IMG/VR virus record: IMGVR_UViG_3300046819_000361
Reading direction: 5' to 3' (one strand)
Length of the DNA stretch: 64,000 bases
Source: a virus
Taxonomy: Duplodnaviria; Caudoviricetes
Below the pieces are notes generated by a model that did not search any database, was not told the origin of the DNA, and saw only the letters and a list, made by a program, of their open reading frames with translations. The translations under genes and the position numbers were made by a program. This document shows positions 10,089-27,432 of this stretch, one piece after another. The number at the start of each line of letters is the position of its first letter. Position 1 is the first letter of the stretch.

Positions 10089-10090
10089 AA

Positions 10091-15707: not shown

Positions 15708-15892
15708 TATGCCCACCTCAACACAAACCAGGTGTATTCTGCATCAGTGATCTCTATCTGAAAGGTATCATCAATCCAAGCAATTTGTTTAATACCGGTA
15801 TCTCGTAAACATTCATCCCAGGTATTAAATTGCCATTTCTCCGAATAATAATCGGTGAACTTTTCAAAATCTAATATGTTGATTATTCTCAT
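15707..15892 (-). CDS. Array micro-protein, A
   Basis: ends WFVLRWA. Confidence 0.8.
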   Translation of the reverse strand: MRIINILDFEKFTDYYSEKWQFNTWDECLRDTGIKQIAWIDDTFQIEITDAEYTWFVLRWA

Positions 15893-16146
15893 GACCACCT
15901 CAATAAGAACCAATTGGCTTTAGCTTCATTTTCGAAAGTCATACCAATGATTGATCCTGGAACGTTCGAGCTTCTTAAAATTGGTTCAGCACCTGCCTTG
16001 CGGACTTCATTTATGATGAAATCAACCCGTTCGGAATCTCGGGAATAAGTATCCCAACCACCTCGTTCATCACAATCCTTTATGAAATTAACCCACCAAC
16101 CAGCTTGATCTGCTATAGAACCAACTCTTAAATGTAGTATTTTCAT
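15889..16146 (-). CDS. Array micro-protein, E
   Basis: ends WFLLRWS. Confidence 0.8.
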   Translation of the reverse strand: MKILHLRVGSIADQAGWWVNFIKDCDERGGWDTYSRDSERVDFIINEVRKAGAEPILRSSNVPGSIIGMTFENEAKANWFLLRWS

Positions 16147-16370
16147 GACCACCTCAATACAAACCAATTCTTATCATCTTCATGTCTAAAAAAATACTTA
16201 CCCCAATGATCGGTAAACCATCTATCAAGATCATTACTACGATCAAAGTTTGACAAACACCATTCACAAATTTCGGCATTCATGATACTAGAAATATGAA
16301 CGACATGGTAATAGAATACCTCGCCGTTTGCTTCAAATCTAGTTTGAGTAATATGATTGATTAAGCCCAT
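16143..16370 (-). CDS. Array micro-protein, D
   Basis: ends WFVLRWS. Confidence 0.8.
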   Translation of the reverse strand: MGLINHITQTRFEANGEVFYYHVVHISSIMNAEICEWCLSNFDRSNDLDRWFTDHWGKYFFRHEDDKNWFVLRWS

Positions 16371-16588
16371 TTTAATAGAAACCAAGTAGCTTTTGCATCA
16401 TCATTAAAAATAACAGTTTTGTCAATCGGATCAACCATTGCATCATATTCTTTTAGTATTTGGTTGATTGAATCAAAGCCATACCATGGTTCTATTATAT
16501 CTGAGTAATAATCAACAAAATTAAACCACCATGGTTCACATGCATTTAGATGATTATAATTTTCTTTACTGAAATGAATTATGACCAT
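16361..16588 (-). CDS. Array micro-protein, E
   Basis: ends WFLLKWA. Confidence 0.8.
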   Translation of the reverse strand: MVIIHFSKENYNHLNACEPWWFNFVDYYSDIIEPWYGFDSINQILKEYDAMVDPIDKTVIFNDDAKATWFLLKWA

Positions 16589-16836
16589 TTCATTATAAAC
16601 CAATTCTTATGGGCTTCGCTTTCGAATTTTAAATATCGACGACAAACATTTCCATTTTCACTGTATGCATGGGTATATTCAGCATGATATTTTTTTAATA
16701 ACTCATTTAATCTGGTTATTGCATCAGCTACTGGTAATTCGTAAATATCGGTAGACTCAATTTTAATCTGACTGAATTTACGCCAAACTGCTGGACAATC
16801 TTCTAAAAAAGATGTTAATTCTATTTCTGTATTCAT
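16579..16836 (-). CDS. Array micro-protein, E
   Basis: ends WFIMKWS. Confidence 0.8.
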   Translation of the reverse strand: MNTEIELTSFLEDCPAVWRKFSQIKIESTDIYELPVADAITRLNELLKKYHAEYTHAYSENGNVCRRYLKFESEAHKNWFIMKWS

Positions 16837-17036
16837 GAAAATCTTAATAAAAACCAAGTGTAATATTTTTCGGATTCGAACTCGTAATACAACAAGTGAT
16901 CACGCATAACTCTTTTAAATCGATACTTGCTCATCAATTCTTCATAACCCTCAACTGTCTCAGCAAGTTTGTATTCTTTGATGTAATTATACCTAACACG
17001 ATATGGTATGTCAAAGAATCTTACCGAATACGTCAT
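16833..17036 (-). CDS. Array micro-protein, C
   Basis: ends WFLLRFS. Confidence 0.8.
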   Translation of the reverse strand: MTYSVRFFDIPYRVRYNYIKEYKLAETVEGYEELMSKYRFKRVMRDHLLYYEFESEKYYTWFLLRFS

Positions 17037-17227
17037 GACCATTTTAAAACGAACCACGTGTAATCTTCATCTGACATACGTATATAAGTACCGAAATAAT
17101 TATCGTCAGGATCAGCTCTTGCACTTTTATATCCATTAGCTCTAACACTTTCTTCCCAGGTATCATATTCATCATTTTGACACTCTTTTTTATATTTTGG
17201 GAAATTAGTTATCTTAATCGTTTTCAT
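17033..17227 (-). CDS. Array micro-protein, A
   Basis: ends WFVLKWS. Confidence 0.8.
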   Translation of the reverse strand: MKTIKITNFPKYKKECQNDEYDTWEESVRANGYKSARADPDDNYFGTYIRMSDEDYTWFVLKWS

Positions 17228-17427
17228 GACCACCTCAATACAAACCAATTCTTATGTGCTTCATTTTTAAATGTAATACGTGTATAGGTAGTGTTCCATT
17301 CCGCCTCTATAACATGTGGTAATGATTTTATATATTGTATCCACGGTATCCACGAATCTAAACGATCCCATTCCTTGGAGAGATTATCATCCATGGCTGA
17401 GAAAGTGAATACTTTTAAATGTATCAT
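17224..17427 (-). CDS. Array micro-protein, B
   Basis: ends WFVLRWS. Confidence 0.8.
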   Translation of the reverse strand: MIHLKVFTFSAMDDNLSKEWDRLDSWIPWIQYIKSLPHVIEAEWNTTYTRITFKNEAHKNWFVLRWS

Positions 17428-17642
17428 GACCACCTAATTAGAAACCAAGTTAAATGTTCTTCACTTTCAAATGTTATGGTAATTGACTCATAATCTTCAT
17501 TTGCTTTTGTATTGACGATTATAGGATCAAGTGTGCGAATAAAATCTTCATAATTTAAATAATATTCCCACCAATTCTTATCCCACATCTCCGTTAATTT
17601 TTTATCGAGTTGACAACCATCATATAAAATAAACTCAATCAT
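17424..17642 (-). CDS. Array micro-protein, B
   Basis: ends WFLIRWS. Confidence 0.8.
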   Translation of the reverse strand: MIEFILYDGCQLDKKLTEMWDKNWWEYYLNYEDFIRTLDPIIVNTKANEDYESITITFESEEHLTWFLIRWS

Positions 17643-17866
17643 GACCACCTCAAAATAAACCAGGTGTATTGGTATTCGTGTTCAAATGATAGCCAACGTT
17701 CATCTGCAGAATTTTGCTTATCAGTAGTATACGAGAATGTAGCACCATATTCTTTAAGCCCTTCATTAATTGCAGCTGTATCAGAGTGAAGAATATTTGT
17801 TTCCATTACATAATTCATCCACCAACTAGGGCAAACTCCATTTGTTCTAAATAGTAATATCTTCAT
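17639..17866 (-). CDS. Array micro-protein, E
   Basis: ends WFILRWS. Confidence 0.8.
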   Translation of the reverse strand: MKILLFRTNGVCPSWWMNYVMETNILHSDTAAINEGLKEYGATFSYTTDKQNSADERWLSFEHEYQYTWFILRWS

Positions 17867-18081
17867 GACCACCTCAAAATAAACCAGTTCTTATGTGCTT
17901 CACTTTCAAATGTAATAAGTGTATAGGGATTCAGCAACCTATCAATCCATTCTGCATCCTTAACATAAGTTAATGATTTCAAATAACGTAACCATTCATC
18001 TATATTAATATCTTCTGCTTCCCATTCTGCTTCAAGATTTTCATCTATATTAGATGGTGAAGGTATCCTTAATTGTATCAT
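17863..18081 (-). CDS. Array micro-protein, B
   Basis: ends WFILRWS. Confidence 0.8.
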   Translation of the reverse strand: MIQLRIPSPSNIDENLEAEWEAEDINIDEWLRYLKSLTYVKDAEWIDRLLNPYTLITFESEAHKNWFILRWS

Positions 18082-18275
18082 GACCACCTCAATACAAACC
18101 AAGTGTAGTAAGCTTCGCTTTCAAAAATGGCTAGATAATCACTGGTATATTCACAATGAAACTTTACCAATTCTGCTCTAAAAACACTGAGATCTGTATA
18201 GGGACGAACATATTTGTCACAAAAGTTTTTTCGAGGGGTGAGCGGTATATCTGCCCAATCAATAGTAAAACTCAT
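18078..18275 (-). CDS. Array micro-protein, C
   Basis: ends WFVLRWS. Confidence 0.8.
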   Translation of the reverse strand: MSFTIDWADIPLTPRKNFCDKYVRPYTDLSVFRAELVKFHCEYTSDYLAIFESEAYYTWFVLRWS

Positions 18276-18454
18276 GACCACCTCAATACAAACCAAGTGT
18301 ATTCTTCATCATCCATATACCAAGAACCATAAGATCTAAACTTGGTTGATTTATACCCGGCAGCTATTAGACTATCAGACATTAGCAACGAATTGGGAAA
18401 GTTTTCTCCAGCATAACTCACAAATTTAGGAAAATCTGTCACATCAAATATCAT
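18272..18454 (-). CDS. Array micro-protein, A
   Basis: ends WFVLRWS. Confidence 0.8.
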   Translation of the reverse strand: MIFDVTDFPKFVSYAGENFPNSLLMSDSLIAAGYKSTKFRSYGSWYMDDEEYTWFVLRWS

Positions 18455-18455
18455 T

Positions 18456-18650
18456 CTAACTCCATCTCAACAAAAACCAATTATAATGTGCTTCGCTTTC
18501 AAAAATGGCTAGATTATCACTGGTATATTCACAATGAAACTTTGCTAATTCTGCTTTAAAAATATTCATATTAATAGGAACAGGATATGCAGCACAAAAT
18601 TTCCGTCGAACATCGTATGGTATAGATGGCCATTCAATAGTAAAACTCAT
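18456..18650 (-). CDS. Array micro-protein, C
   Basis: ends WFLLRWS. Confidence 0.8.
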   Translation of the reverse strand: MSFTIEWPSIPYDVRRKFCAAYPVPINMNIFKAELAKFHCEYTSDNLAIFESEAHYNWFLLRWS

Positions 18651-18868
18651 GACCACCTCAATACAAACCAATTATAACAGGATTCGTTTTCAAAAACAAA
18701 CAAATCATTGTTAGATTTATCGTGTATTGCATTAAATTTGGCAAGTTCAACTGCTTCGTTTCGTATACACATCTCATAATCGAGTTGTTTATGTTCCCAC
18801 AAGCAAAAATCTTCAAAATTTTTTTTTACATTTTTAGGTAACATCTTATAATGAATTGTAAAACTCAT
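18647..18868 (-). CDS. Array micro-protein, C
   Basis: ends WFVLRWS. Confidence 0.8.
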   Translation of the reverse strand: MSFTIHYKMLPKNVKKNFEDFCLWEHKQLDYEMCIRNEAVELAKFNAIHDKSNNDLFVFENESCYNWFVLRWS

Positions 18869-19110
18869 GACCACCTCAACACAAACCAAGTCTTATATTC
18901 TTCTTTGTCAAATGCCAAGGCTTCTATATCATTAATACGTCTATCATAAATCTTTGATGCATGATACTCTTCTTTAAGAATTTTAGTAGTTACCCGCCGA
19001 AAATCACTTCCAAAATCATTTGGGTATTTTAATCGGCAATCATGGATAAAGTTTTGCCACCAGATTGGGGTAGATTCGAACATACATCCTGGTATTTCTA
19101 ATCGATGCAT
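18865..19110 (-). CDS. Array micro-protein, E
   Basis: ends WFVLRWS; close paralog of 11167. Confidence 0.8.
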   Translation of the reverse strand: MHRLEIPGCMFESTPIWWQNFIHDCRLKYPNDFGSDFRRVTTKILKEEYHASKIYDRRINDIEALAFDKEEYKTWFVLRWS

Positions 19111-19319
19111 TATGACCACCTCAATAAGAACCAATGATACATAGCTTCATCGTTAAAATGAAAACATGATTTAGAATGATCATATTTCGCACCAAATTTA
19201 TTCAACTCATCATTTATCGTTGCCCAATATTTGCCTGTGCCAACCATATGGCTACATTGATCGTGTAAATTTTTTAAAACAACCTTTGGGACTATCTTCG
19301 AATCAATTTTTATAGTCAT
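19110..19319 (-). CDS. Array micro-protein, C
   Basis: ends WFLLRWS. Confidence 0.8.
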   Translation of the reverse strand: MTIKIDSKIVPKVVLKNLHDQCSHMVGTGKYWATINDELNKFGAKYDHSKSCFHFNDEAMYHWFLLRWS

Positions 19320-19501
19320 GACCACCTCAATAAGAACCAAGTATACTCTTCATCTGATATCCATAATCTTTCACCAAACGCTGAACAAGTAACTGCACTT
19401 TTAAATCCATTAGCCCTAACACTAGCTTCCCATGTACTGTATCCATCGTTTATAAATTCTGTTTTGTATTTTGGAAAATAATATAAATCGAGTATTTTCA
19501 T
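19316..19501 (-). CDS. Array micro-protein, A
   Basis: ends WFLLRWS. Confidence 0.8.
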   Translation of the reverse strand: MKILDLYYFPKYKTEFINDGYSTWEASVRANGFKSAVTCSAFGERLWISDEEYTWFLLRWS

Positions 19502-19719
19502 GAATACCTCAATATAAACCAATTCTTATGTGCTTCATTTTCAAATGTGATCAAGGTATGATTATCACCAGCTCTAAAAACAAGCCTTGCTGATTTAACA
19601 TAAGGTAATGATTCTATATACCTTATCCAATGACTGAATTCATAAAATTCTGATAATTCCCATTCATCTTGAATATTAGAATCCATGGCAGATAATGCTG
19701 GTACTTTTAATTGTATCAT
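19498..19719 (-). CDS. Array micro-protein, B
   Basis: ends WFILRYS. Confidence 0.8.
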   Translation of the reverse strand: MIQLKVPALSAMDSNIQDEWELSEFYEFSHWIRYIESLPYVKSARLVFRAGDNHTLITFENEAHKNWFILRYS

Positions 19720-19916
19720 GACCACCTCAATAAGAACCAAGTATATTCTTCATCATGCTCAAATACATATGTCCAATTTTCTTTATCAAATGTTGCACGA
19801 TATTCATTAAACACCCAATCTAAATAAATTATAGTACACCCAGGCTCCCATACATTCAACGAGTAATATTCACGCATGGCTAAACACGGTGCTGACTCTA
19901 ATGAGATCGACTTCAT
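19716..19916 (-). CDS. Array micro-protein
   Basis: ends WFLLRWS. Confidence 0.8.
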   Translation of the reverse strand: MKSISLESAPCLAMREYYSLNVWEPGCTIIYLDWVFNEYRATFDKENWTYVFEHDEEYTWFLLRWS

Positions 19917-20110
19917 GACCACCTCAAGACAAACCAAGTATATTCTTCTTCACTTAATTGCCATGATTTATTATCTTTTGAAAAAATTACATACATTGCC
20001 GATTTAAAACCCATTCGTCGCATACATTCATCACCCTTTAACCGAGAATAAGGCTCAGATTGCCATGCAGCAATGAATTTTTTAAATTTATAGATGTCAA
20101 TGTTTTTCAT
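19913..20110 (-). CDS. Array micro-protein, A
   Basis: ends WFVLRWS. Confidence 0.8.
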   Translation of the reverse strand: MKNIDIYKFKKFIAAWQSEPYSRLKGDECMRRMGFKSAMYVIFSKDNKSWQLSEEEYTWFVLRWS

Positions 20111-20304
20111 GAATACCTTATTAAAAACCATGTATATTCTTCATCACTCAAGCCCCAACCAACCTCAATATTAACAAACCTTGCTGATTTGAATCCAACC
20201 TGTCTCATATAATCAGCAGCAGCGTGGTGATAACTAGAAAAATCTGGGTATAAAATCCACTCATCTAAAAATCGAGGAAAATCGTTAATATTAAATGTTT
20301 TCAT
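20107..20304 (-). CDS. Array micro-protein, A
   Basis: ends WFLIRYS. Confidence 0.8.
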   Translation of the reverse strand: MKTFNINDFPRFLDEWILYPDFSSYHHAAADYMRQVGFKSARFVNIEVGWGLSDEEYTWFLIRYS

Positions 20305-20513
20305 AACCATCTCAAAATAAATCAATTGATTATTTCATCTGGTACATTATCGCCGAACTCTATTTCCAGAGCAGGTCTATCATATAAATGTTCATGTCTT
20401 ACCCGGTAATCTTCCACTTTATGTGCAATAAGCCAATTCGTAACTGCTGGGGTAAGTTTAAATAGTAAACCCTCTAAATAAAAATTCTCAAACCCTATCT
20501 TAACCTGTTTCAT
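20301..20513 (-). pseudogene. Array cassette with TGG>TGA at the conserved Trp
   Basis: ...PDEIIN*FILRWL*. Confidence 0.7.
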
Positions 20514-20716
20514 GACCACCTCAATAAATAAAACGTTTTTAATTCTGGGGTTCTAAATTTAATCGCACCAAATTCGTAATTCCGAATTCGTGGATAATAA
20601 TCCCCAATATTTTCTGCGCGGATGAAATCACTATTGAAAATGTAACCTTGTCTACGAGCGTCACGTGCCATTTCCCGATACATCGTGCGTGTTAACTCAG
20701 TCCACGTCGTATCCAT
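20510..20716 (-). CDS. Array micro-protein
   Basis: GGAGGTGGT-ATG start; ends FYLLRWS. Confidence 0.75.
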   Translation of the reverse strand: MDTTWTELTRTMYREMARDARRQGYIFNSDFIRAENIGDYYPRIRNYEFGAIKFRTPELKTFYLLRWS

Positions 20717-20909
20717 ACCACCTCCATGCAAAAAACTCGGCACAATGGATTGTGCTAAACTTAACGATATCATCACCCCATGACCATTTATCATTATCTT
20801 GATAAGGGCCGAACACATGATTGAACCACTCCCACATGTCTTGCCTAAATGCACGTCTAATACAGGAAGTATTAATCGAATACGGATACTGTTCTTTTTC
20901 TATGACCAT
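20697..20909 (-). CDS. Array micro-protein, D
   Basis: ends FFAWRWYGYDVD. Confidence 0.75.
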   Translation of the reverse strand: MVIEKEQYPYSINTSCIRRAFRQDMWEWFNHVFGPYQDNDKWSWGDDIVKFSTIHCAEFFAWRWYGYDVD

Positions 20910-21118
20910 TTTAATATAAACCAGGTTAAATATTTTTCGTTTTCAAATGTTAGGGTAATTGACTTATAATTTTCATCTGCTTTTGCATTGACAATGTGCG
21001 GATCTAATGAGCCAACAAACATTTCATAATTTATCCGGTCAGAGTAGTGGTCATCCTCCCACATAGCCATTAATTTTACATCAAGTGGGCTACCATCATA
21101 TAAAATAAAATCAATCAA
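20900..21118 (-). CDS. Array micro-protein, B
   Basis: TTGA overlap; ends WFILKWS; paralog of 17424. Confidence 0.8.
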   Translation of the reverse strand: MIDFILYDGSPLDVKLMAMWEDDHYSDRINYEMFVGSLDPHIVNAKADENYKSITLTFENEKYLTWFILKWS

Positions 21119-21195
21119 GACCACCTCACTAAAACCCAATTATAACAGGATTCATTGTCGAATTCAATAGAACACTCATTAATTTTCATTGACAT
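21115..21195 (-). CDS. 26-aa minimal cassette (C-terminal motif only)
   Basis: MSMKINECSIEFDNESCYNWVLVRWS. Confidence 0.6.
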   Translation of the reverse strand: MSMKINECSIEFDNESCYNWVLVRWS

Positions 21196-21196
21196 C

Positions 21197-21424
21197 TTAA
21201 CTCCATCTCAATAAGAACCAATTACTATGTTCCCTATAATCAAACCGAATATAATGGGTATCCCTACCAGGCGTGTATCCAGTATAATAATAAAAACGAT
21301 CAGTATTAGGGCCACTACAATGGTCAAATAACCACTCCCATACTTCATCTGACAAGCTATTTTCATAGATGCAATTATCATATAAAGTACCAGTCAGCTT
21401 AATAGTATGGGGATCAAAAATCAT
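21197..21424 (-). CDS. Array micro-protein, D
   Basis: ends WFLLRWS. Confidence 0.8.
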   Translation of the reverse strand: MIFDPHTIKLTGTLYDNCIYENSLSDEVWEWLFDHCSGPNTDRFYYYTGYTPGRDTHYIRFDYREHSNWFLLRWS

Positions 21425-21642
21425 GAATACCTCAATATAAACCAATTCTTATGTGCTTCATTTTCAAATGTGATCAAGGTATGATTATCACCAGCTCTAA
21501 AAACAAGCCTTGCTGATTTAACGTGAGGTAATGATTCTATATACATTGTCCAAGTATCGAACCCATATGATTCTGATGATTCCCATTCCGCTTCGATATT
21601 ACTATCCATAGTAGATGGTGAGGGTACTTTTAATTCACTCAT
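21421..21642 (-). CDS. Array micro-protein, B
   Basis: ends WFILRYS. Confidence 0.8.
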   Translation of the reverse strand: MSELKVPSPSTMDSNIEAEWESSESYGFDTWTMYIESLPHVKSARLVFRAGDNHTLITFENEAHKNWFILRYS

Positions 21643-21842
21643 GACCACCTCAAAATAAACCAAGTTGTGTGTGCGTCATCCTTGAACCAAACATTTGTAT
21701 ATGGGGTATCGTAACGAACCCTGATAATATTCTTGTCAAGTGACTTAATAAATATTTCCCATGATGAAACTCCAGCATTTCTCCATGCATCGTATAACTT
21801 CCACTCTATTGTAGAATTATTCTTTATCGTTAATTGACTCAT
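21639..21842 (-). CDS. Array micro-protein, B
   Basis: ends WFILRWS. Confidence 0.8.
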   Translation of the reverse strand: MSQLTIKNNSTIEWKLYDAWRNAGVSSWEIFIKSLDKNIIRVRYDTPYTNVWFKDDAHTTWFILRWS

Positions 21843-22072
21843 GACCACCTCATTATAAACCAGGTTTTATCTTCTTCCCTAGCAAAATCAATACACGTAT
21901 AATAGGGGTCTTCGAAGTATTCAATTTCACATTCAATACCATCTAATAAAAAATTCAACCATTCTACCCACTCTGTAATATCGCCATGATGAAAAGGTAT
22001 ATCAATACCCCATTGTGCTTCCAGATTGTTATCCATTTTACTACACGTGGGTATCTTTAACTTATAACTCAT
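21839..22072 (-). CDS. Array micro-protein, B
   Basis: ends WFIMRWS. Confidence 0.8.
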   Translation of the reverse strand: MSYKLKIPTCSKMDNNLEAQWGIDIPFHHGDITEWVEWLNFLLDGIECEIEYFEDPYYTCIDFAREEDKTWFIMRWS

Positions 22073-22302
22073 GACCACCTCAATACAAACCAATTCTTAT
22101 GTGCTTCACTTTCAAATGTGATCAAAGTATATGATGGATTATCATCACCATTCCATTCACGCTCATGCCAGGTTGCATCAATGACCGTGGGTAATGATTT
22201 CAAATAATCCAACCAATCATCAATCTGATAAAATTCACTAGCCCACCCAGATTCAAGATTAACATCTATCGTTGAACTAGATATTATAATTAACTCACTC
22301 AT
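22069..22302 (-). CDS. Array micro-protein, B
   Basis: ends WFVLRWS. Confidence 0.8.
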   Translation of the reverse strand: MSELIIISSSTIDVNLESGWASEFYQIDDWLDYLKSLPTVIDATWHEREWNGDDNPSYTLITFESEAHKNWFVLRWS

Positions 22303-22514
22303 GAATATTTTAATAAAAACCAAGTCTTATGTGCTTCATTATCAAATTCAATCTGCATAACTTCAACACCACCCAATTTAACACGGTCAACACTAACTAT
22401 ATTGTCATCAAGCGATTTGATAAAACTATACCACCCAACAATACTAGATGCCAAATATAAATCAGACAGTTTCTTATATAATGGTAAATTATTACCCATA
22501 TACAATACACTCAT
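22299..22514 (-). CDS. Array micro-protein, B
   Basis: ends WFLLKYS. Confidence 0.8.
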   Translation of the reverse strand: MSVLYMGNNLPLYKKLSDLYLASSIVGWYSFIKSLDDNIVSVDRVKLGGVEVMQIEFDNEAHKTWFLLKYS

Positions 22515-22717
22515 GAATACCTCAATATAAACCAAGTCTTATGTGCTTCACTTGTAAATGTGATTCGTGTAATACTACCCGATAAACCACTGACATCAAT
22601 AATGTTCTCATCAAGCGATTTAACAAACTTATACCAGGTATAAGTTTGACTACTAAAAAATAGCCGAGTCAGTTTATGATCTAACGCAGTACCCTCTTTT
22701 AAATATAACTCACTCAT
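22511..22717 (-). CDS. Array micro-protein, B
   Basis: ends WFILRYS. Confidence 0.8.
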   Translation of the reverse strand: MSELYLKEGTALDHKLTRLFFSSQTYTWYKFVKSLDENIIDVSGLSGSITRITFTSEAHKTWFILRYS

Positions 22718-22971
22718 GAATACCTCAATAAAAACCAAGTCTTACCTTCAGCACTATCAAATATAATTTCTTTGACCTCATTATCAAGCCTATCTAAACT
22801 CCCATGATATTTCTGTAATTCCTGATTAATTAGATACCAGGTATCATCACGATCTGGCCAATCTGAATACCTGGACATCAGTTCTCTCACCATGGTCTTC
22901 CATTCATTCGTACAACTGTCCCAAGCAGTTGCACCAATAATGCTTGGTTTATAAATGCTTAATCTAATCAT
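22714..22971 (-). CDS. Array micro-protein, E-like
   Basis: ends WFLLRYS. Confidence 0.8.
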   Translation of the reverse strand: MIRLSIYKPSIIGATAWDSCTNEWKTMVRELMSRYSDWPDRDDTWYLINQELQKYHGSLDRLDNEVKEIIFDSAEGKTWFLLRYS

Positions 22972-23153
22972 GACCACCTCAATACAAACCAAGTATATTC
23001 TTCTTCGCTCAACCCCCATGCATTCACAGTACCATTGGCTTTGAATGTTGCAGTTTTATAACCCATTCTTCTCATTTTTTCATTGAGTGTGCCTGAGTAG
23101 CTTTCACTTTCTTTCCTAAATTTGGGAAAATTTGTAATATCAAACCATTTCAT
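22968..23153 (-). CDS. Array micro-protein, A
   Basis: ends WFVLRWS; close paralog of 26118. Confidence 0.8.
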   Translation of the reverse strand: MKWFDITNFPKFRKESESYSGTLNEKMRRMGYKTATFKANGTVNAWGLSEEEYTWFVLRWS

Positions 23154-23353
23154 GACCATCTCAATATAAACCAATTCTTACGTGCATCATCATCAAACCA
23201 AATATCAGTGTATGGATTAGCATACCGAACACTAATAATATTCTTGTCAAGTGACTTAATAAAGGCTACCCATGTTATAGCTGGACTATTCCGCCATTCA
23301 TCATATAACTTTCTCTCCAAAGCAGATTTATTCTTTATCGTTAATTGACTCAT
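23150..23353 (-). CDS. Array micro-protein, B
   Basis: ends WFILRWS; close paralog of 21639. Confidence 0.8.
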   Translation of the reverse strand: MSQLTIKNKSALERKLYDEWRNSPAITWVAFIKSLDKNIISVRYANPYTDIWFDDDARKNWFILRWS

Positions 23354-23544
23354 GACCACCTCAATAAAAACCAAGTCTTGTGTGCTTCAGTTGCAAACTC
23401 AACGTAGGTAATAAATCTGTTATATGTAACACTGGATATCCCAACTTCATGCCTTGCTATATCCAGCCACTCTATTGTACCATAATATTTGGCTATATTG
23501 TCTTCTAAAGTTGATATCACTGGTATCTCCAATATACAACTCAT
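23350..23544 (-). CDS. Array micro-protein, B
   Basis: ends WFLLRWS. Confidence 0.8.
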   Translation of the reverse strand: MSCILEIPVISTLEDNIAKYYGTIEWLDIARHEVGISSVTYNRFITYVEFATEAHKTWFLLRWS

Positions 23545-23768
23545 GACCACCTCAATAAGAACCAAGTCTTATGTTCTTCTGTCTTGAATTTAACTATAGT
23601 ACCATTGACCCCATTAACTGCTCCAGAACGAACATCAATTATACCCTTACTAATCGATAATAAATAATTAGACCATTGAATATCATCAGCACAATCAGGT
23701 ATATACCATTGCTCTTCTAACTTATAGTCCATAACAGAACCATAGGGTATATGTAACATACAACTCAT
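23541..23768 (-). CDS. Array micro-protein, B
   Basis: ends WFLLRWS. Confidence 0.8.
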   Translation of the reverse strand: MSCMLHIPYGSVMDYKLEEQWYIPDCADDIQWSNYLLSISKGIIDVRSGAVNGVNGTIVKFKTEEHKTWFLLRWS

Positions 23769-23956
23769 GACCACCTCAATACAAACCATGTATATTCTTC
23801 GTCCGATATCAATACTCTATCGGCACTTGCGAAAGTCTGGTCTTCAATTACACTTTTAAAGCCATTAGCTCTAAAAGTAGCTTGCCAAGACGGGAGGCCA
23901 TCCCTCCAAAACATTTCTTTAAATTTTGGAAAATCACTTACATATACCTTTTTCAT
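23765..23956 (-). CDS. Array micro-protein, A
   Basis: ends WFVLRWS. Confidence 0.8.
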   Translation of the reverse strand: MKKVYVSDFPKFKEMFWRDGLPSWQATFRANGFKSVIEDQTFASADRVLISDEEYTWFVLRWS

Positions 23957-24174
23957 GACCACCTCAATACAAACCAGGTCTTATGCGCTTCACTTTCAAA
24001 TGTAATAAGCGTATAGGATGATGCCATCTCCCCACCGTTAACCCATTTCGCATCTTTAACACAGGGCAACAATTTCACCTTCCGTATCCAACCTTCAATA
24101 CTTCCATACCCATTAAAGTAGCATTCAAGATTGTAATCTATAGAACTACTTTGTTGTACTTTTAGTTGTATCAT
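23953..24174 (-). CDS. Array micro-protein, B
   Basis: ends WFVLRWS. Confidence 0.8.
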   Translation of the reverse strand: MIQLKVQQSSSIDYNLECYFNGYGSIEGWIRKVKLLPCVKDAKWVNGGEMASSYTLITFESEAHKTWFVLRWS

Positions 24175-24386
24175 GACCACCTCAAAATAAACCAATTATA
24201 ATAGGCTTCTGACTCAAATGTCAAGGTATATTGATGTATATCATACGTGACATGGTATCGATTTAATTCTGATTCGCGTACCACCAATTGTTTTTCAAAG
24301 CTCATTCCAAGCCATCCCTGCTCGTATAACGACATGGTAAAATTAACCCACCATTCATCCATCAGTGAAGGTTTGATGGTTATCAT
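24171..24386 (-). CDS. Array micro-protein, E
   Basis: ends WFILRWS. Confidence 0.8.
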   Translation of the reverse strand: MITIKPSLMDEWWVNFTMSLYEQGWLGMSFEKQLVVRESELNRYHVTYDIHQYTLTFESEAYYNWFILRWS

Positions 24387-24577
24387 GACCACCTCAATAA
24401 GAACCAAGTATAATCTTCATCTGATAAATCTAACACCGTGCCAAAAAAAGGATGGACAGCATTAACTTTTACACTTTTATATCCATTAGCCCTAATACTA
24501 TCTTCCCATGTATCGTATCCATCATTGTGAAACTCGGTTGTGTATTTTGGAAAATCATTTATCTTAATTGTTTTCAT
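24383..24577 (-). CDS. Array micro-protein, A
   Basis: ends WFLLRWS; paralog of 17033/19316. Confidence 0.8.
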   Translation of the reverse strand: MKTIKINDFPKYTTEFHNDGYDTWEDSIRANGYKSVKVNAVHPFFGTVLDLSDEDYTWFLLRWS

Positions 24578-24777
24578 GACCACCTCAATACAAACCAATT
24601 ACGATCTTCTTCATTACTAAACGCCAATCGATAAAATGGCCAGTTTTCCCAGGTTAACATGAATGTACCCTTACAATTCTTTTTCAACCATTCAGAAGTT
24701 TCATAGGTTAACATAACTCTACCACTCGCTTGAATTGTCCAAGTGGTTGTATGCAATATATCTACATAATATATCAT
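24574..24777 (-). CDS. Array micro-protein, D
   Basis: ends WFVLRWS. Confidence 0.8.
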   Translation of the reverse strand: MIYYVDILHTTTWTIQASGRVMLTYETSEWLKKNCKGTFMLTWENWPFYRLAFSNEEDRNWFVLRWS

Positions 24778-24980
24778 GAGTATTTTATTAAGAAAAAAGT
24801 TTTAGATTCGTCTGATTTAAATACAATAGTAGTACAACCGGGTTCACTACCTGATTGAATATATTCGGCATCAATAATTCCATAATACCCAATAATAAGG
24901 TCTTCCCAAACTACGTTGTTGAATTCTTCACGTAATTTATGATCCATGCTTGAATTTATTTTTACTTTTAGTTGTATCAT
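24774..24980 (-). CDS. Array micro-protein, B
   Basis: ends FFLIKYS. Confidence 0.8.
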   Translation of the reverse strand: MIQLKVKINSSMDHKLREEFNNVVWEDLIIGYYGIIDAEYIQSGSEPGCTTIVFKSDESKTFFLIKYS

Positions 24981-25246
24981 GAATACCTCAATATAAACCA
25001 AGTATAATCCGATTTCTTTCTAAATGCAAATTGAGCACTGCCAAAACCCTTACTCCATACATTACGATCAACATTTTTGATGTTTTTATGAATCCAGTCT
25101 ACTACCTCGGCATAACCTTCCAAATCTGCAACAAATCCAAGTAAGTTGAGTTGTTTAACCGTATATACCCCAGCCCATCCTTCTGGAAGATCCATGTAAT
25201 AACCATCTGATGTAATAGGCCAATTGCCTGTAAATATATTCTTCAT
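24977..25246 (-). CDS. Array micro-protein, D-like
   Basis: ends WFILRYS. Confidence 0.8.
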   Translation of the reverse strand: MKNIFTGNWPITSDGYYMDLPEGWAGVYTVKQLNLLGFVADLEGYAEVVDWIHKNIKNVDRNVWSKGFGSAQFAFRKKSDYTWFILRYS

Positions 25247-25470
25247 GAATACCTCAATATAAACCAAGTCTTATGTTCTTCACTATCAAATGTGATCAAG
25301 GTATGATTATCACCCTCCCCATAAACAAACTTTGCATCTTTAACATGCGGTAATGATTCTATATGCCCAGTCCAAGAAATGTCGTACCCATAAAATTTCT
25401 CTGATAACTCCCATTCCGCATAGATATTACGATCCATAGATGAGAAAGTGACTACCTTTAATTGACTCAT
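25243..25470 (-). CDS. Array micro-protein, B
   Basis: ends WFILRYS. Confidence 0.8.
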   Translation of the reverse strand: MSQLKVVTFSSMDRNIYAEWELSEKFYGYDISWTGHIESLPHVKDAKFVYGEGDNHTLITFDSEEHKTWFILRYS

Positions 25471-25715
25471 GACCACCTCAATAAAAACCAAGTCTTATGT
25501 TCTTCATTACCAAATCCATAGGTAGAACCAGTATACTCCCATTTCTCAAACGCCCATACCCGGTCTTTTCTATTGAGTACTAGCCTTCTACCGGACGATA
25601 GTGTTAAATAATCATGCCCAAACTGTGATCTTAACCATGCTGACGCTTCTACACTATCACTTTTTATAGTAGCTTTAAACGGGTATTTCTTTTTCCATCC
25701 TAATTTTTGACTCAT
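25467..25715 (-). CDS. Array micro-protein, D
   Basis: ends WFLLRWS. Confidence 0.8.
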   Translation of the reverse strand: MSQKLGWKKKYPFKATIKSDSVEASAWLRSQFGHDYLTLSSGRRLVLNRKDRVWAFEKWEYTGSTYGFGNEEHKTWFLLRWS

Positions 25716-25915
25716 GCATACCTCAATATAAACCAAGTCTTATGTGCTTCACTCTCAAATGTAATATCAGTGTAGAAGGCATCAACAAACACATCAACTA
25801 TATTATCATCAAGTGTTTTAATAAACTCAGGCCAATTATAATAACTAGATGCCATATATAACTTAACAATGTTAAGACCCACTCGTGATTCCCTATATAA
25901 CGTAAGTACATTCAT
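25712..25915 (-). CDS. Array micro-protein, B
   Basis: ends WFILRYA. Confidence 0.8.
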   Translation of the reverse strand: MNVLTLYRESRVGLNIVKLYMASSYYNWPEFIKTLDDNIVDVFVDAFYTDITFESEAHKTWFILRYA

Positions 25916-26121
25916 GACCACCTCAATACAAACCAAGTAAAATCCACATCATCCATACACCAACCTTGCCCAGGTTCAGCCATAATCGCAGATCTATATC
26001 CTTCACGTATCATTATCTCACTATATAAGGGTCTTTTACCAGTTATCTCCAGTTCATCTTCAGCAATACGTTTTGCATAATAGTAAAAATTTGGGTAGTC
26101 AGTTATATGAAACTGCTTCAT
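25912..26121 (-). CDS. Array micro-protein, A
   Basis: ends WFVLRWS. Confidence 0.8.
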   Translation of the reverse strand: MKQFHITDYPNFYYYAKRIAEDELEITGKRPLYSEIMIREGYRSAIMAEPGQGWCMDDVDFTWFVLRWS

Positions 26122-26300
26122 GAAAACCTCAACACAAACCAGGTATATTCTTCTTCACTTAAACCCCATGCATTAGGACCTTGAAGTCTGAATTTTGCAG
26201 ATTTAAAACCCATTCTTCTCATCGTATCATCGAGCGTACCTGAATAGTTTAGTGCTTCTTTTCTAAAATTGGGAAAATTTGTGACATTAAACCATTTCAT
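26118..26300 (-). CDS. Array micro-protein, A
   Basis: ends WFVLRFS. Confidence 0.8.
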   Translation of the reverse strand: MKWFNVTNFPNFRKEALNYSGTLDDTMRRMGFKSAKFRLQGPNAWGLSEEEYTWFVLRFS

Positions 26301-26479
26301 GACCACCTCAATACAAACCAAGTATACTCAATATCATCCATCTCATATATTAAATCATTCAAATCATGCACCCTGACAGATGGAAACCCATTATTACGTA
26401 AACTTTCACACCATGTATCATACCCATCACCAGCAGCAAACCTACGAAATTTCGGAAACCCCATTAAATTAAAAATCAT
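26297..26479 (-). CDS. Array micro-protein, A
   Basis: ends WFVLRWS. Confidence 0.8.
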   Translation of the reverse strand: MIFNLMGFPKFRRFAAGDGYDTWCESLRNNGFPSVRVHDLNDLIYEMDDIEYTWFVLRWS

Positions 26480-26664
26480 AAAAACCTCAATATAAACCAA
26501 GTCCAATGCTCATCACTCATAGAATACGAATTTTCACGTCCAAACGGCCCATGCTGATCAACTGAACTATATCCAGCCCTTTTTAAACTATCATACCAAG
26601 TACCACTGTCACTTTCATATTCTTCAATAAACTTCGGAAACTCCAGTAAATTAAAATACTTCAT
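26476..26664 (-). CDS. Array micro-protein, A
   Basis: ends WFILRFL. Confidence 0.8.
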   Translation of the reverse strand: MKYFNLLEFPKFIEEYESDSGTWYDSLKRAGYSSVDQHGPFGRENSYSMSDEHWTWFILRFL

Positions 26665-26885
26665 GACCACCTCAATACAAATAACGTATAATACGCTTCA
26701 TTTTCAAATTCGATAACATCATGGTTAGAAATAGTCGCATGAAATTTTAATAACTCATCACGCTCAACTTGCTGACATAACAAGTCACCTATCGATGGAT
26801 CAATACCAGCAGTCCAACCACAATGCTCCTCAAGATTGCTTTTTATTGATGTAGGTAAATCATCATACAATATACAAAATGTCAT
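26661..26885 (-). CDS. Array micro-protein, C
   Basis: ends LFVLRWS. Confidence 0.8.
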   Translation of the reverse strand: MTFCILYDDLPTSIKSNLEEHCGWTAGIDPSIGDLLCQQVERDELLKFHATISNHDVIEFENEAYYTLFVLRWS

Positions 26886-27103
26886 GTCCACCTCAACACA
26901 AACCAATTATAATAGGCTTCTGATTCAAAAATCAAAGTAGTAAACTCGAACGGCTCCCGATCTATAACGATTGCATTAAATTTTGCCAACTCATCTTTAA
27001 CATTAGCATAATATACTGGACCAGATGCTTCATTAATCAAACAATGAACGTTAAACTTGCTCCAATTAATCTTTACATCAACATCTCTTATTACAAAACT
27101 CAT
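26882..27103 (-). CDS. Array micro-protein, C
   Basis: ends WFVLRWT. Confidence 0.8.
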   Translation of the reverse strand: MSFVIRDVDVKINWSKFNVHCLINEASGPVYYANVKDELAKFNAIVIDREPFEFTTLIFESEAYYNWFVLRWT

Positions 27104-27282
27104 GACCACCTCAATATAAACCAGGTATATTCTTCTGCACTCAAACTATGTCTAGGATAACTACTACAATCATATTCATAAGTCTTAAACCCATGCACTT
27201 TAAACGATTCAACCCAATCCAACTCCTGTGTCTCATTCATGAATTTATGGAACGTAGATGCACTAAATTTTACTCGCTTCAT
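27100..27282 (-). CDS. Array micro-protein, A (first, leader-proximal cassette)
   Basis: GAGGTGATC-ATG start; ends WFILRWS. Confidence 0.8.
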   Translation of the reverse strand: MKRVKFSASTFHKFMNETQELDWVESFKVHGFKTYEYDCSSYPRHSLSAEEYTWFILRWS

Positions 27283-27391
27283 GATCACCTCAATATACCA
27301 AAACACAATACTACCACATCTCACTATCACAGTCAATACAAAACCCACTAACTGTCTTCTCCTCACAAACTACAACACTTCCATTATATCA
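27283..27391 (-). promoter_or_regulatory. Array promoter (extended -10 TGnTATAAT) and G/T-rich leader with orphan repeat copy
   Basis: TGATATAAT at 27391-27383; TGGTATATTGAGGTGATCATGA at leader end. Confidence 0.65.
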
Positions 27392-27403
27392 TACATAAAA
27401 CAC

Positions 27404-27432
27404 TTGACACAAACTCCTTTACATTGTACACT
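27404..27432 (+). promoter_or_regulatory. Divergent sigma70 promoter TTGACA-17-TACACT
   Basis: seen; back-to-back with array promoter. Confidence 0.65.

What the first reader, a model, noticed from the sequence alone, without database searches (positions are those of the whole stretch)
27279..27432. Leader with an orphan repeat, and polarity along the array
Seen: upstream of cassette 1 is a repeat copy not ending any gene (TGGTATATTGAGGTGATCATGA) and a second partial one (TGGGTTTTGTATTGA), in a G/T-rich leader behind an extended -10 promoter. By eye, repeats are closest to consensus at 17-27 kb, where subfamilies A and B dominate, and more degenerate at 7.6-16 kb, where D and singletons dominate. 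Inference: newer cassettes enter or expand near the promoter, as in CRISPR leaders and integron attI sites. Caveat: GAGGTGATC is also simply a 9-nt match to the 16S 3' end.
Basis: partly seen in the sequence, partly recalled or inferred. Interest (0 to 1): 0.7.

Follow-up and report, generated by a model that had tools for sequence, protein, structure and literature searches.

The report
Start region of a 90-gene phage array
The flagged 154 bases are the promoter and ribosome-binding region at the head of a 90-gene operon of small look-alike genes in a giant lake phage. The array does change more near its promoter, but by ordinary homologous recombination at the shared gene junctions, not by CRISPR- or integron-like insertion at a leader.

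Summary

**What the array is.** Window 7637-27282 (minus strand) is a chain of 90 homologous small genes. The "repeat" encodes the conserved C-terminal peptide WFxLRWS, and also serves as the next gene's Shine-Dalgarno site and an ATGA stop/start overlap.

**The two leader motifs.**
- The "orphan repeat" (27279-27300) is the ribosome-binding site of gene 1. Only its last 19 nt match the junction without a gap. Relic status for the rest is weakly supported.
- The "second partial repeat" (27334-27348) is better read as the T-run plus -35 box of a second promoter. It lies at the edge of a strain polymorphism: five other strain contigs carry a 214-aa His-Me (EndoVII-like) nuclease gene there.

**Polarity.** It is real (junction PWM score against gene index, rho -0.44, p 1e-5). 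SD strength, paralogue similarity and family composition support it. It is a plateau over genes 1-45 followed by decay, not a gradient from the leader.

**Strain differences.**
- 18 strain contigs show about 15 cassette-level changes in genes 1-48 and 3 in genes 49-90.
- Breakpoints fall at junctions or at matched positions in paralogues.
- The only clear recent duplicate found (gene 45, in L111) lies mid-array.
- Gene 2 is variable, but genes 3-15 are invariant.
- No integrase was found.

**Verdict.** This is a birth-and-death gene family driven by homologous recombination, possibly helped by the leader nuclease.

The parts
7637..27282 (-). Chain of 90 homologous small genes (60-135 aa). 69 of 89 junctions are ATGA stop/start overlaps.
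   Evidence: No Pfam or PHROG family matched in ten members tested. AlphaFold models of two subfamilies give the same beta-alpha-alpha-beta-beta-alpha fold.
27279..27300 (-). 'Orphan repeat' TGGTATATTGAGGTGATCATGA: the Shine-Dalgarno site and start codon of gene 1. Here it is in the form fully complementary to the 16S 3' end (GAGGTGATC), whereas internal junctions have GAGGTGGTC because they must encode Trp.
   Evidence: Identical in all four aligned alleles: the window and three other strain contigs (A4).
27308..27336 (-). Promoter-like site P1b: TTGACT, 17 nt, TGgTAGTAT. It would give a 5' UTR of about 20 nt that consists essentially of the orphan repeat.
   Evidence: It lies in the 75 nt that are 100% conserved in all four alleles. 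The head of the array in phage record G003 has the same layout of terminator, T-run and TTGACA.
27334..27348 (-). 'Second partial repeat' TGGGTTTTGTATTGA: a T-run plus the first bases of the P1b -35 box. In nuclease-bearing strains it is the 3' arm and U-tract of a terminator hairpin.
   Evidence: The terminator hairpin folds at -17.7 kcal/mol, z -2.75.
27347..27385 (-). 39-nt segment specific to the window. In other strains its place is taken by a roughly 0.72-kb cassette holding a promoter, a 214-aa His-Me/EndoVII-like nuclease gene and a terminator.
   Evidence: The nuclease matches phrog_1035 at E 3.9e-25. Contigs of two further lake metagenomes depart from the window at 27346/27380.
27383..27410 (-). 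Promoter-like site P1a: GTGTCA, 16 nt, TGaTATAAT (extended -10).
27404..27432 (+). Divergent promoter-like site TTGACA-17-TACACT for the plus-strand early genes that begin at 27466.
27100..27282 (-). Gene 1 (60 aa, subfamily A). Its homologue in phage record G003 is an internal array member preceded by a complete junction.
   Evidence: alignment A3.
26882..27103 (-). Gene 2, a variable cassette. It is absent from 4 of 5 other strain contigs, with the deletion exactly at the junction.
23765..24174 (-). Genes 16-17, a variable pair of cassettes. They are absent from 9 of 11 strain contigs, and the deletion joins junction to junction.
   Evidence: Joint 23764>24171 shares 15 letters on both sides.
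17424..17866 (-). Genes 46-47. In most strains they are replaced by one 146-148-aa gene that carries a patch identical to gene 60.
24195..24224 (-). Internal perfect sigma-70 consensus (12 of 12), formed by the coding motif TLTFESEAYYNW of gene 15.
16986..17014 (-). Internal perfect sigma-70 consensus (12 of 12) inside gene 50.
7612..7640 (-). Perfect sigma-70 consensus overlapping the stop codon of gene 90. It would serve the genes after the array (the ART-PolyVal gene and others).

Best explanation
**What the interval is.** It is the transcription and translation start region of a roughly 19.6-kb operon of 90 translationally coupled, homologous small genes in an uncultured lake jumbo phage.

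**What the repeat is.** The repeat at each junction does three jobs. It encodes the last helix of the protein (WFxLRWS), it is the next gene's Shine-Dalgarno site (GAGGTGG), and it carries the ATGA stop/start overlap.

**The orphan copy.** It is the same start module placed before gene 1. No upstream Trp codon needs to be encoded there, so it takes the fully 16S-complementary form GAGGTGATC. It may also be the decayed 3' end of a lost upstream cassette.

**The second partial copy.** It is not a repeat. It is the T-run and -35 box of a second promoter (P1b). It lies at the boundary where most other strains carry a mobile His-Me nuclease gene with its own promoter and terminator.

**The polarity.** It is a two-zone pattern. 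Genes 1-48 hold the two recently expanded subfamilies, which have near-identical junctions. Homologous recombination between junctions and between paralogues deletes, duplicates, swaps and converts whole cassettes there. In genes 49-90 the junctions have drifted at the nucleotide level (a weaker SD, Arg to Lys) while the peptide is kept, and the gene order is stable.

**Status of each step.**
- Shown: the anatomy, the statistical trend, the strain differences and the positions of breakpoints.
- Inferred: promoter use, that recombination causes the polarity, and that uniform junctions and recombination reinforce each other.
For: **Anatomy.**
- There are 40 GAGGTG-N(1-4)-ATG sites on the minus strand of the window against 2 on the plus strand.
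- The 90 genes form one chain.
- Two subfamilies share one fold, with pLDDT 93 and 88.

**Orphan copy.** Only the SD/ATGA half matches the junction profile.

**Polarity.**
- PWM score against gene index: rho -0.44, p 1.2e-5.
- SD duplex energy: rho 0.27, p 0.01. Best-paralogue identity: rho -0.34, p 0.004. The peptide motif is kept along the whole array, in 13, 15, 12, 14, 12 and 10 genes per bin of 15.
- The trend holds within families.

**Strains.**
- 18 contigs were mapped gene by gene.
- The variable cassettes are 2, 16-17, 24, 26, 29-41 and 46-48. In the distal half only 68-73 and 77-79 vary, all in one contig.
- That gives about 15 events against 3: binomial p 0.07 with a contig-coverage null and p 0.008 with a per-gene null.

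**Breakpoints.**
- 63 of 110 segment ends lie within 30 nt of a junction, against 27.8% expected (p 9e-11).
- Whole-cassette indels have both ends within 15 nt of a junction.
- Chimeras join paralogues at matched offsets, for example 42/44, 10/28 and 6/21.
- A joint with 15 letters shared on both sides appears in an independent metagenome.

**Leader.**
- The nuclease cassette and the conserved 75 nt are shown in alignment A4.
- The terminator hairpin folds significantly.
- G003 has the same terminator-promoter layout.

**Recombination machinery.** A RecA-family gene is present in three related phage records.
Against: - Promoter use and transcript starts are not measured. The RNA-library contigs that cover parts of the array give neither strand nor ends.
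- The event count is small, the strain contigs are not independent lineages, and the coverage-weighted test is only p 0.07.
- Only five other contigs reach the leader, and they represent perhaps two or three lineages.
- Nucleotide identity of orthologous genes between strains shows no positional trend (rho 0.04). The polarity is therefore seen in structure and junction quality, not in substitution rate.
- The PWM was trained on the majority junction type, which is commoner in the proximal half. The SD-energy and paralogue measures are independent of it but weaker.
- The window is a metagenomic assembly of a repeat-rich region. Long collinear stretches in independent assemblies argue against gross misassembly but do not exclude local chimeras.
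Confidence: 0.68

Rival explanations
1. **Nuclease-primed polarity.** The free-standing His-Me nuclease gene at the array head cuts nuclease-free leaders during mixed infection. Repair of the break drives co-conversion, unequal recombination and segmental amplification, with a rate that falls with distance from the leader. That gradient creates the hot proximal zone. This adds a cause to the best explanation rather than excluding it.
For: - The nuclease gene is present in 5 of 6 other leader-spanning contigs and absent from the window and from L113, which is 100% identical to the window.
- It matches phrog_1035 at E 3.9e-25.
- The window carries two paralogues, at 38037-38801 and 35196-35936. 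This is typical of homing-endonuclease families.
- Homologues of 54-55% identity lie directly at the head of the independent array in G003.
- Gene 1, next to the insertion, is among the most divergent orthologues (91% in three strains).
- Published precedent: the SegB homing endonuclease drives segmental amplification of a neighbouring small-gene cluster in T-even phages (PMC13096335). Nuclease genes also bound regions of genetic exchange in phages (PMC10448857).
Against: - No cleavage site or activity is known.
- The hot zone extends about 10 kb from the leader, while genes 3-15 nearest the nuclease are invariant.
- G002 has 39 family copies and no homologue of the nuclease in its 76-kb fragment.
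- With four copies in 60 kb of G003, having one near the array head has roughly a 1-in-8 chance.
Confidence: 0.2
2. **Leader-directed acquisition, as in CRISPR leaders or integron attI.** New cassettes are inserted next to the promoter by a dedicated enzyme, the orphan repeat is the insertion site, and older cassettes are pushed downstream and decay.
For: - A repeat-like element lies upstream of cassette 1.
- Junctions are more degenerate distally.
- Cassette 2, next to the leader, is present or absent between strains.
Against: - Best-paralogue identity peaks at genes 16-45, not 1-15.
- Genes 3-15 are invariant in 7-10 contigs.
- Cassette 2 has no close paralogue (48%).
- The recent duplication of gene 45 in L111 is mid-array.
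- Indels use many different junctions.
- No PF00589 integrase is found in four related records, one of them 97% complete.
- The junction forms no hairpin.
- The repeat is coding sequence.
- Other arrays show no polarity.
Confidence: 0.05
3. **Expression-driven polarity only.** Promoter-proximal genes are translated more or earlier, so selection keeps their SD and ATGA coupling perfect. Distal genes are under weaker selection and their junctions drift. Recombination rate is uniform, and the strain pattern is a sampling effect.
For: - SD duplex energy weakens distally, from -10.6 to -7.6 kcal/mol. ATGA overlaps fall from 39 of 45 to 30 of 45, while the peptide motif persists.
- The coverage-weighted event test is only p 0.07.
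Against: - Perfect sigma-70 consensus sites inside the array, at 24224 and 17014, would re-supply transcription distally.
- Family composition differs between the halves.
- All three distal structural events come from one contig that also carries an IS605 TnpB insertion.
- Gene-conversion patches are concentrated among proximal paralogues.
Confidence: 0.12
4. **Artefact.** The apparent strain differences and the polarity come from misassembly of a repeat-rich region in short-read metagenomes.
For: - Many contigs end inside the proximal array.
- Several joints in Logan contigs have short sides of 23-38 nt at junctions.
Against: - The same events recur in contigs from independent assemblies and sources (JGI, ENA, Logan). 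For example, genes 16-17 are absent from 9 of 11 contigs.
- Collinear stretches of 10-16 kb agree with the window at 98-99% identity.
- The PWM trend is a property of the window sequence itself.
Confidence: 0.04

Closest known systems
Integron cassette array (attI, Pc promoter, attC, IntI)
   Same: - A promoter at one end drives a row of mostly promoterless single-gene units.
- Each unit ends in a repeat.
- Whole units are gained, lost and swapped between strains, with breakpoints at the repeats.
   Different: - No integrase was found.
- The repeat is coding sequence plus a ribosome-binding site and has no attC hairpin.
- All cassettes are homologues of one another.
- Variation is not focused at the promoter-proximal site.
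- The exchange looks like homologous rather than site-specific recombination.
CRISPR leader-repeat-spacer array
   Same: - A leader with a promoter is followed by regularly spaced repeats.
- Repeats are more degenerate at the far end.
   Different: - The units are 180-400-nt protein-coding genes of variable length.
- The repeat is translated.
- No cas genes were seen next to the array (only the adjacent ORFs were scanned with Pfam and PHROGs, not with Cas models).
- There is no sign of leader-end novelty.
Viral tandem multigene families that evolve by unequal recombination (poxvirus 'genomic accordions', ASFV MGF families, hyperplastic regions of T4-like phages). Cited from general knowledge, not checked in a paper here.
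   Same: - Tandem paralogues are probably expressed early (the early timing is inferred here, not shown).
- Copy number and order vary between strains through homologous recombination and gene conversion.
   Different: - The scale is larger: 90 genes in one operon, against 4 to 39 in related phage records.
- The genes are tightly coupled in translation.
- One 24-36-nt junction acts at once as peptide code, SD site, stop/start overlap and recombination homology.
SegB homing-endonuclease-driven segmental amplification in T-even phages (PMC13096335); nuclease-bounded exchange regions (PMC10448857)
   Same: A free-standing nuclease gene, present in some strains and absent from others, sits next to a cluster of small tandem genes whose copy number varies.
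   Different: - The nuclease family differs: His-Me/EndoVII-like here, GIY-YIG for SegB.
- No cleavage or amplification has been shown here.
- The genes nearest the nuclease are the stable ones.

Membership tests
Integron | Tyrosine recombinase IntI encoded next to attI and the Pc promoter | tested here: not met
   The ORFs flanking the array have no recombinase domain. PF00589 is absent from four related viral records that carry the family, one of them 97% complete, while the control genomes all gave hits. The window's own complete genome is not held.
Integron | attC: an imperfect inverted repeat at the 3' end of each cassette that folds as single-stranded DNA | tested here: not met
   Three 61-nt junction regions, one of them folded on both strands, give -0.5 to -1.4 kcal/mol, no better than shuffles. 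The only palindrome is TCATGA.
Integron | New cassettes enter at the promoter-proximal attI site | tested here: not met
   Genes 3-15 are invariant and the duplication of gene 45 is mid-array. Cassette 2 is variable but has no close paralogue.
CRISPR array | Non-coding repeats of fixed length separated by spacers of nearly fixed length | tested here: not met
   The repeat encodes WFxLRWS and the units are ORFs of 183-408 nt.
CRISPR array | Leader-proximal units are the newest and strain differences are concentrated there | tested here: not met
   The hot zone is genes 16-48, plus cassette 2.
Translationally coupled polycistronic operon | Overlapping stop/start codons with an SD inside the upstream gene, and few internal promoters | tested here: met
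   69 of 89 junctions are ATGA overlaps with GAGGTGG 3 nt upstream. There are about 45 near-consensus promoters in 23 kb of the opposite-strand early region, against 3-4 in the 19.6-kb array. Coupling itself has not been measured.
Tandem paralogue family evolving by homologous recombination (birth-and-death with gene conversion) | Members are homologous, strains differ by whole-unit indels with ends in shared sequence, and paralogues form chimeras at matched positions | tested here: met
   Single-linkage BLAST clustering joins 75 of the 90 genes. Two subfamilies share one fold. Breakpoint statistics and mosaics are, and a joint with 15 shared letters is.
Free-standing homing endonuclease gene (His-Me / EndoVII / HNH superfamily), for the 214-aa gene in other strains' leaders | A nuclease domain, presence/absence polymorphism at one site between close strains, its own expression signals, and several paralogues per genome | tested here: met
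   - It matches phrog_1035 'endonuclease VII' at E 3.9e-25.
- It has a C-terminal HxxxH...N...N motif.
- The indel carries its own promoter and terminator.
- Paralogues occur in the window and in G003.
- Pfam gave no nuclease hit at E below 0.1.
- Cleavage and homing are not testable here.

The most novel reading that the evidence does not exclude
The array would be an integrase-free cassette system. The triple-duty junction would serve as a portable 24-36-nt homology that lets whole micro-genes be deleted, duplicated and swapped in frame without breaking translation. A mobile His-Me nuclease parked at the array head (seen in other strains of this phage and at the head of an unrelated array in G003) would supply the double-strand breaks, and so set the promoter-proximal hot zone. 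That would make it a phage-built diversification locus for a library of early proteins.
Probability: 0.2. Interest if true: 0.8.

Novelty: new variant of a known kind. Interest (0 to 1): 0.55.

Why it matters
A 90-gene, single-family, translationally coupled operon is unusual for a phage, and I found no description of it. Ten members tested matched no Pfam or PHROG family, and the literature searches found no paper. This report settles how the array starts and how it changes.

- Whole genes move in and out precisely at a junction that is at once protein code, ribosome-binding site and stop/start signal. Every recombinant therefore stays translatable.
- That is a simple route to a fast-evolving library of early proteins, presumably aimed at the host, without any dedicated recombinase.
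- The mobile nuclease at the array head gives a testable link to the recent finding that homing endonucleases amplify neighbouring anti-defence genes.
- The specific idea of CRISPR- or integron-like entry at the leader can be set aside.

Tried and rejected
**Similarity and family searches**
- Megablast of 26-30 kb and tblastn of one array protein against 50,697 phage records found no match. The helicase places the phage only distantly near PA5oct and Atu_ph07.
- Pfam and PHROGs on ten array proteins gave nothing. A profile search against PDB sequences gave nothing.
- Foldseek and VIA-align gave only generic ferredoxin/RRM-like matches (Z up to 5.7, E at least 0.1). No function can be inferred from them.

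**The leader as a junction relic**
- nhmmer does not extend the match beyond 19 nt.
- Comparison with the tail of the gene upstream of the gene-1 homologue in G003 gives p 0.043. This is suggestive only.
- The leader RNA fold is unremarkable (z -1.33).

**Strain and neighbour searches**
- Loci neighbouring the GP88 gene: the near-identical strain contig stops before the leader, and distant relatives lack an adjacent array.
- The 96-aa neighbour protein found no viral contig.
- The exact-protein look-up of gene 1 failed, probably because gene callers chose an upstream GTG start.
- Nucleotide identity of orthologous genes along the array shows no trend. The lower block identity of the proximal half reflects gaps and mosaic alleles, not faster substitution.

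**Other arrays.** Polarity in the arrays of G002 and G003 is absent, but those arrays are short and incomplete.

**Transcription.** RNA-library contigs cover scattered parts of the array at low depth. They give neither strand nor ends, and DNA carry-over cannot be excluded, so transcription is not shown.

**Literature.** Three searches found no paper on such arrays.

**Own genome.** The window's whole genome is not held, so a recombinase elsewhere in it cannot be excluded.
Full report
**1. What is at the coordinates**

Read on the minus strand, 27440 to 27279 contains the following elements:
- a promoter-like site, GTGTCA-16-TGaTATAAT (27410..27383, here P1a);
- a G/T-rich stretch (A22 C3 G36 T39 per 100 nt);
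- the string TGGGTTTTGTATTGA (27348..27334);
- a second promoter-like site, TTGACT-17-TGgTAGTAT (27336..27308, here P1b);
- TGGTATATTGAGGTGATCATGA (27300..27279), whose ATG at 27282 opens the first gene of the array.

A divergent TTGACA-17-TACACT on the plus strand (27404..27432) faces the early genes that begin at 27466.

**2. What the repeat is**

Walking from ATG 27282 gives a chain of 90 genes of 60-135 aa, ending at 7637. In this chain 69 of 89 junctions are ATGA overlaps.

Nearly every product ends in ...[EA]x[KY][TN]WFxLRWS. The junction TGGTTTGTATTGAGGTGGTCATGA therefore reads W-F-V-L-R-W-S-stop in one frame. In the frame of the next gene it carries GAGGTGG plus ATG.

GAGGTG-N(1-4)-ATG occurs 40 times on the minus strand of the window and twice on the plus strand.

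The genes are true homologues:
- Single-linkage BLAST clustering joins 75 of the 90.
- AlphaFold models of two subfamilies (pLDDT 93 and 88) have the same beta-alpha-alpha-beta-beta-alpha topology. The conserved motif forms the last strand and helix.
- Ten members tested match no Pfam or PHROG family.
- Fold searches give only generic ferredoxin/RRM-like matches.

The host genome is a jumbo phage from lake water. Its helicase is 52% identical to that of PA5oct. Contigs carrying the same proteins reach 367 kb. More than 12 lake or freshwater studies hold the sequence.

**3. The orphan repeat**

Scored with a 36-nt PWM of the junction, the copy before gene 1 gets 3.0 bits in all. The SD/ATGA half scores +20.8 bits and the upstream half -17.9 bits, and 17.7% of random positions do as well on that half. 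A profile HMM aligns only TATATTGAGGTGATCATGA (5.0 bits, E 2.1).

The orphan is thus the array's standard start module placed in front of gene 1. It differs from internal copies at one base, GAGGTGATC against GAGGTGGTC. Internal copies must encode Trp (TGG). The leader copy has no such need, so it takes the form fully complementary to the 16S 3' end.

Two weak hints suggest the copy is also a relic of a lost upstream cassette:
- TGGT lines up with the consensus if 2 nt are deleted.
- In another phage (G003) the homologue of gene 1 (76% nt identity) is an internal array member. It is preceded by a full junction with the same TATATTGAGGTG. The sequence further upstream resembles that gene's tail only at p 0.043.

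**4. The second partial repeat and the leader polymorphism**

The 10-mer shared with the consensus is marginal (p 0.06 against composition-matched shuffles). Strain comparison gives a better reading.

Five contigs from other samples span the leader (L114, L115, L116, L119, L120). Of the six other leader-spanning contigs, only L113 lacks the cassette described below, and it is 100% identical to the window.

The alignment of the window with L114, L115 and L120 shows three things:
- The last 75 nt before the ATG are 100% identical.
- Upstream of GGGTTTTGTATTGA the window has 39 nt of its own (27347-27385).
- The other strains instead carry about 0.72 kb that holds a consensus promoter, a 214-aa gene and a hairpin, CCCGG-loop-CCGGG, followed by TTTTGTATT. 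That hairpin folds at -17.7 kcal/mol, z -2.75.

The gene tables show the same 214-aa gene in L116 and L119.

The 214-aa product matches PHROG 1035 'endonuclease VII' (E 3.9e-25) and ends in a His-Me/HNH-type motif. The window has two paralogues elsewhere (38037-38801 and 35196-35936). It therefore behaves as a free-standing homing-endonuclease-type gene.

In nuclease-bearing strains the 'second partial repeat' is the 3' arm and U-tract of the terminator, running into the -35 box of P1b. The head of the G003 array has the same layout of terminator, T-run and TTGACA-17-TGaTAAGAT. I therefore read 27334-27348 as promoter context, not as a junction remnant.

Contigs of two further lake metagenomes also depart from the window at 27346/27380.

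**5. Polarity**

- Junction PWM score falls with gene index (rho -0.44, p 1.2e-5). Bin means are 40.2, 42.6, 33.8, 26.4, 22.9 and 19.9 bits.
- SD-antiSD duplex energy, which is independent of the PWM, gives rho 0.27, p 0.01.
- ATGA overlaps number 39 of 45 in the proximal half and 30 of 45 in the distal half.
- Best-paralogue identity gives rho -0.34, p 0.004.
- The peptide motif itself is kept evenly along the array.

The decay is therefore at the nucleotide level. A typical change is TTG AGG TGG becoming TTA AAA TGG, which keeps L-K-W.

Proximal/distal counts are A 13/6, B 16/4, D 1/6 and others 4/15. The trend remains after centring on family (rho -0.26, p 0.015).

The shape is a plateau over genes 1-45 followed by decline. 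Paralogue similarity peaks at genes 16-45, not next to the leader.

Arrays of the same family in other phage records show no trend (rho -0.07, -0.10 and 0.06), though they are short.

**6. Strain comparison**

Exact-protein look-ups returned 18 contigs of close strains. I mapped them gene by gene and by k-mer mosaics.

Relative to the window, the differences in the proximal part are:
- the nuclease cassette in the leader;
- cassette 2 absent from 4 of 5 contigs;
- cassettes 16-17 absent from 9 of 11;
- an extra cassette after gene 19;
- gene 24 absent;
- gene 26 replaced, and an extra cassette after it;
- deletions of genes 29-37, 37-41 and 40-41;
- divergent alleles of genes 31 and 37;
- four extra cassettes between genes 43 and 45;
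- a tandem duplicate of gene 45;
- genes 46-47 replaced by a 146-148-aa gene;
- genes 47-48 absent.

In genes 49-90 there are only three differences, all in one contig: a divergent gene 68, an IS605 TnpB insertion with loss of genes 69-73, and replacement of genes 77-79.

That is about 15 events against 3. The binomial p is 0.07 if weighted by contig coverage and 0.008 per gene. The contigs are not independent, so this is suggestive rather than conclusive.

Genes 3-15 are invariant in 7-10 contigs. Substitution divergence of orthologues shows no trend.

**7. Mechanism of change**

- Segment ends fall within 30 nt of a junction in 63 of 110 cases, against 27.8% expected (p 9e-11).
- Whole-cassette indels (2; 16-17; 24; 26; 40-41; the duplicate of 45; 47) have both ends within 15 nt of junctions.
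- An independent metagenome shows the 16-17 deletion with 15 letters shared by both sides.
- Chimeric genes join paralogues at matching offsets (89/89 for 44 and 42; 106/105 for 28 and 10; 89/77 for 6 and 21).
- Short patches identical to one paralogue sit inside another.

This is the signature of homologous recombination and gene conversion. Other findings point the same way:
- No tyrosine recombinase is found in four related viral records, one of them 97% complete.
- The junction has no hairpin.
- RecA-family genes are present in three of those four records.

My inference is that near-identical junctions and young paralogues in the proximal half make it recombinogenic, and that conversion in turn keeps those junctions uniform. 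Drifted distal junctions recombine less.

**8. A possible extra cause**

The nuclease family also lies directly at the head of the independent G003 array, at 7440-8069 and 8143-8793, next to the first array gene at 7322. A homing endonuclease has been shown to drive segmental amplification of a neighbouring small-gene cluster in T-even phages (PMC13096335), and nuclease genes bound exchange regions in other phages (PMC10448857). Break-induced recombination starting at the leader could therefore contribute to the polarity.

Against this:
- The genes nearest the nuclease are the stable ones.
- G002 has 39 family copies and no such nuclease in its fragment.
- Chance adjacency in G003 is about 1 in 8.

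I give this 0.2.

**9. Transcription architecture**

The plus-strand early region (28-51 kb) has about 45 near-consensus sigma-70 promoters, roughly one per small gene. The 19.6-kb array has P1a and P1b, plus perfect 12-of-12 sites at 24224 and 17014, a 10-of-12 site with TG in the only 57-nt gap (21167), and a perfect site at its end (7640).

Three perfect sites on one strand are far more than the roughly 0.03 expected from base composition (my estimate). The 'single promoter' reading is therefore uncertain. The site at 24224 is built from the codons of the conserved peptide TLTFESEAYYNW.

**10. Verdict**

The sequences and the polarity are real. The orphan is an RBS with at most weak relic status. 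The second copy is promoter and terminator context.
There is a promoter-proximal hot zone, but no leader-directed entry.
- The closest known kind is a tandem paralogue family that evolves by homologous birth-and-death within a translationally coupled operon. It resembles an integron only in layout.
- It is a new variant of a known kind. The interesting open possibility is a nuclease-primed, integrase-free cassette system.

The scan had already noted the array and the triple-duty junction on this same window (e1-5643205, e1-5643206). My results agree with both.

Noticed in passing
window 28200-51000 (+): About 45 near-consensus sigma-70 promoters (TTGACA, 16-18 nt, TATAAT-like), roughly one per small early gene. 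Many have stereotyped spacers (GGGGTTATGTAATAAT or TTGCTAGCTGTATCAT) and leaders (CCCCATCTTAAC...GGAGCAA). This architecture is the opposite of the 90-gene operon on the other strand.
   Followed up: partly
window 24195-24224 (-) and 16986-17014 (-): Perfect 12-of-12 sigma-70 consensus sites lie inside array genes. The first is spelled by the codons of the conserved peptide TLTFESEAYYNW (TTG ACA ... TAT TAT AAT). The C-terminal motif of one subfamily can therefore double as a promoter.
   Followed up: partly
L107:5583-6764 (strain contig; corresponds to window about 11750-12890): An IS605-family OrfB/TnpB gene (393 aa; PF01385, PF07282) is inserted inside the array in one strain, together with loss of cassettes 69-73.
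   Followed up: partly
window 38037-38801 (-) and 35196-35936 (-); fragment at 52258-52320: Two full paralogues (46% and 40% identity) and one fragment of the His-Me/EndoVII-like nuclease that occupies the array leader in other strains. They lie antisense within the plus-strand early region, as free-standing homing-endonuclease genes often do.
   Followed up: partly
G001, G002, G003, G004 (IMG/VR records behind L002, L007, L008, L013): Copy number of the WFxLRWS family ranges from 4 in a 97%-complete 338-kb phage to 20-39 in 60-88-kb fragments and 90 in this window. The 24-nt junction is identical at the nucleotide level in 23 viral contigs, most of which share little or no other nucleotide similarity with the window.
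   Followed up: partly
window 17424-17866 (-), against L104:6049-6489 and others: Most strains have a single 146-148-aa gene where the window has genes 46 and 47. It contains a patch identical to gene 60, so it looks like a fusion or mosaic cassette.
   Followed up: partly
window 6317-7048 (-): The first gene after the array encodes an ART-PolyVal ADP-ribosyltransferase domain (PF18760, E 1e-22). It is served by the perfect promoter that overlaps the stop codon of gene 90.
   Followed up: no
window 61644-63956 (-): The helicase gene carries a LAGLIDADG homing-endonuclease (intein-like) insert at residues about 284-360.
   Followed up: no
L114:752-940 and L116:2085-2273: A 62-aa CsrA-family protein (PF02599) is called in the early region of sister strains. 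I did not check whether the window has it.
   Followed up: no
window 20322-20909 (-): Genes 31 and 33 lack the C-terminal motif. They sit near the only sizeable intergenic gap (21140-21196), which holds a promoter-like site, and near a terminator-like hairpin (20755-20740). This may be a seam between two transcription units.
   Followed up: no
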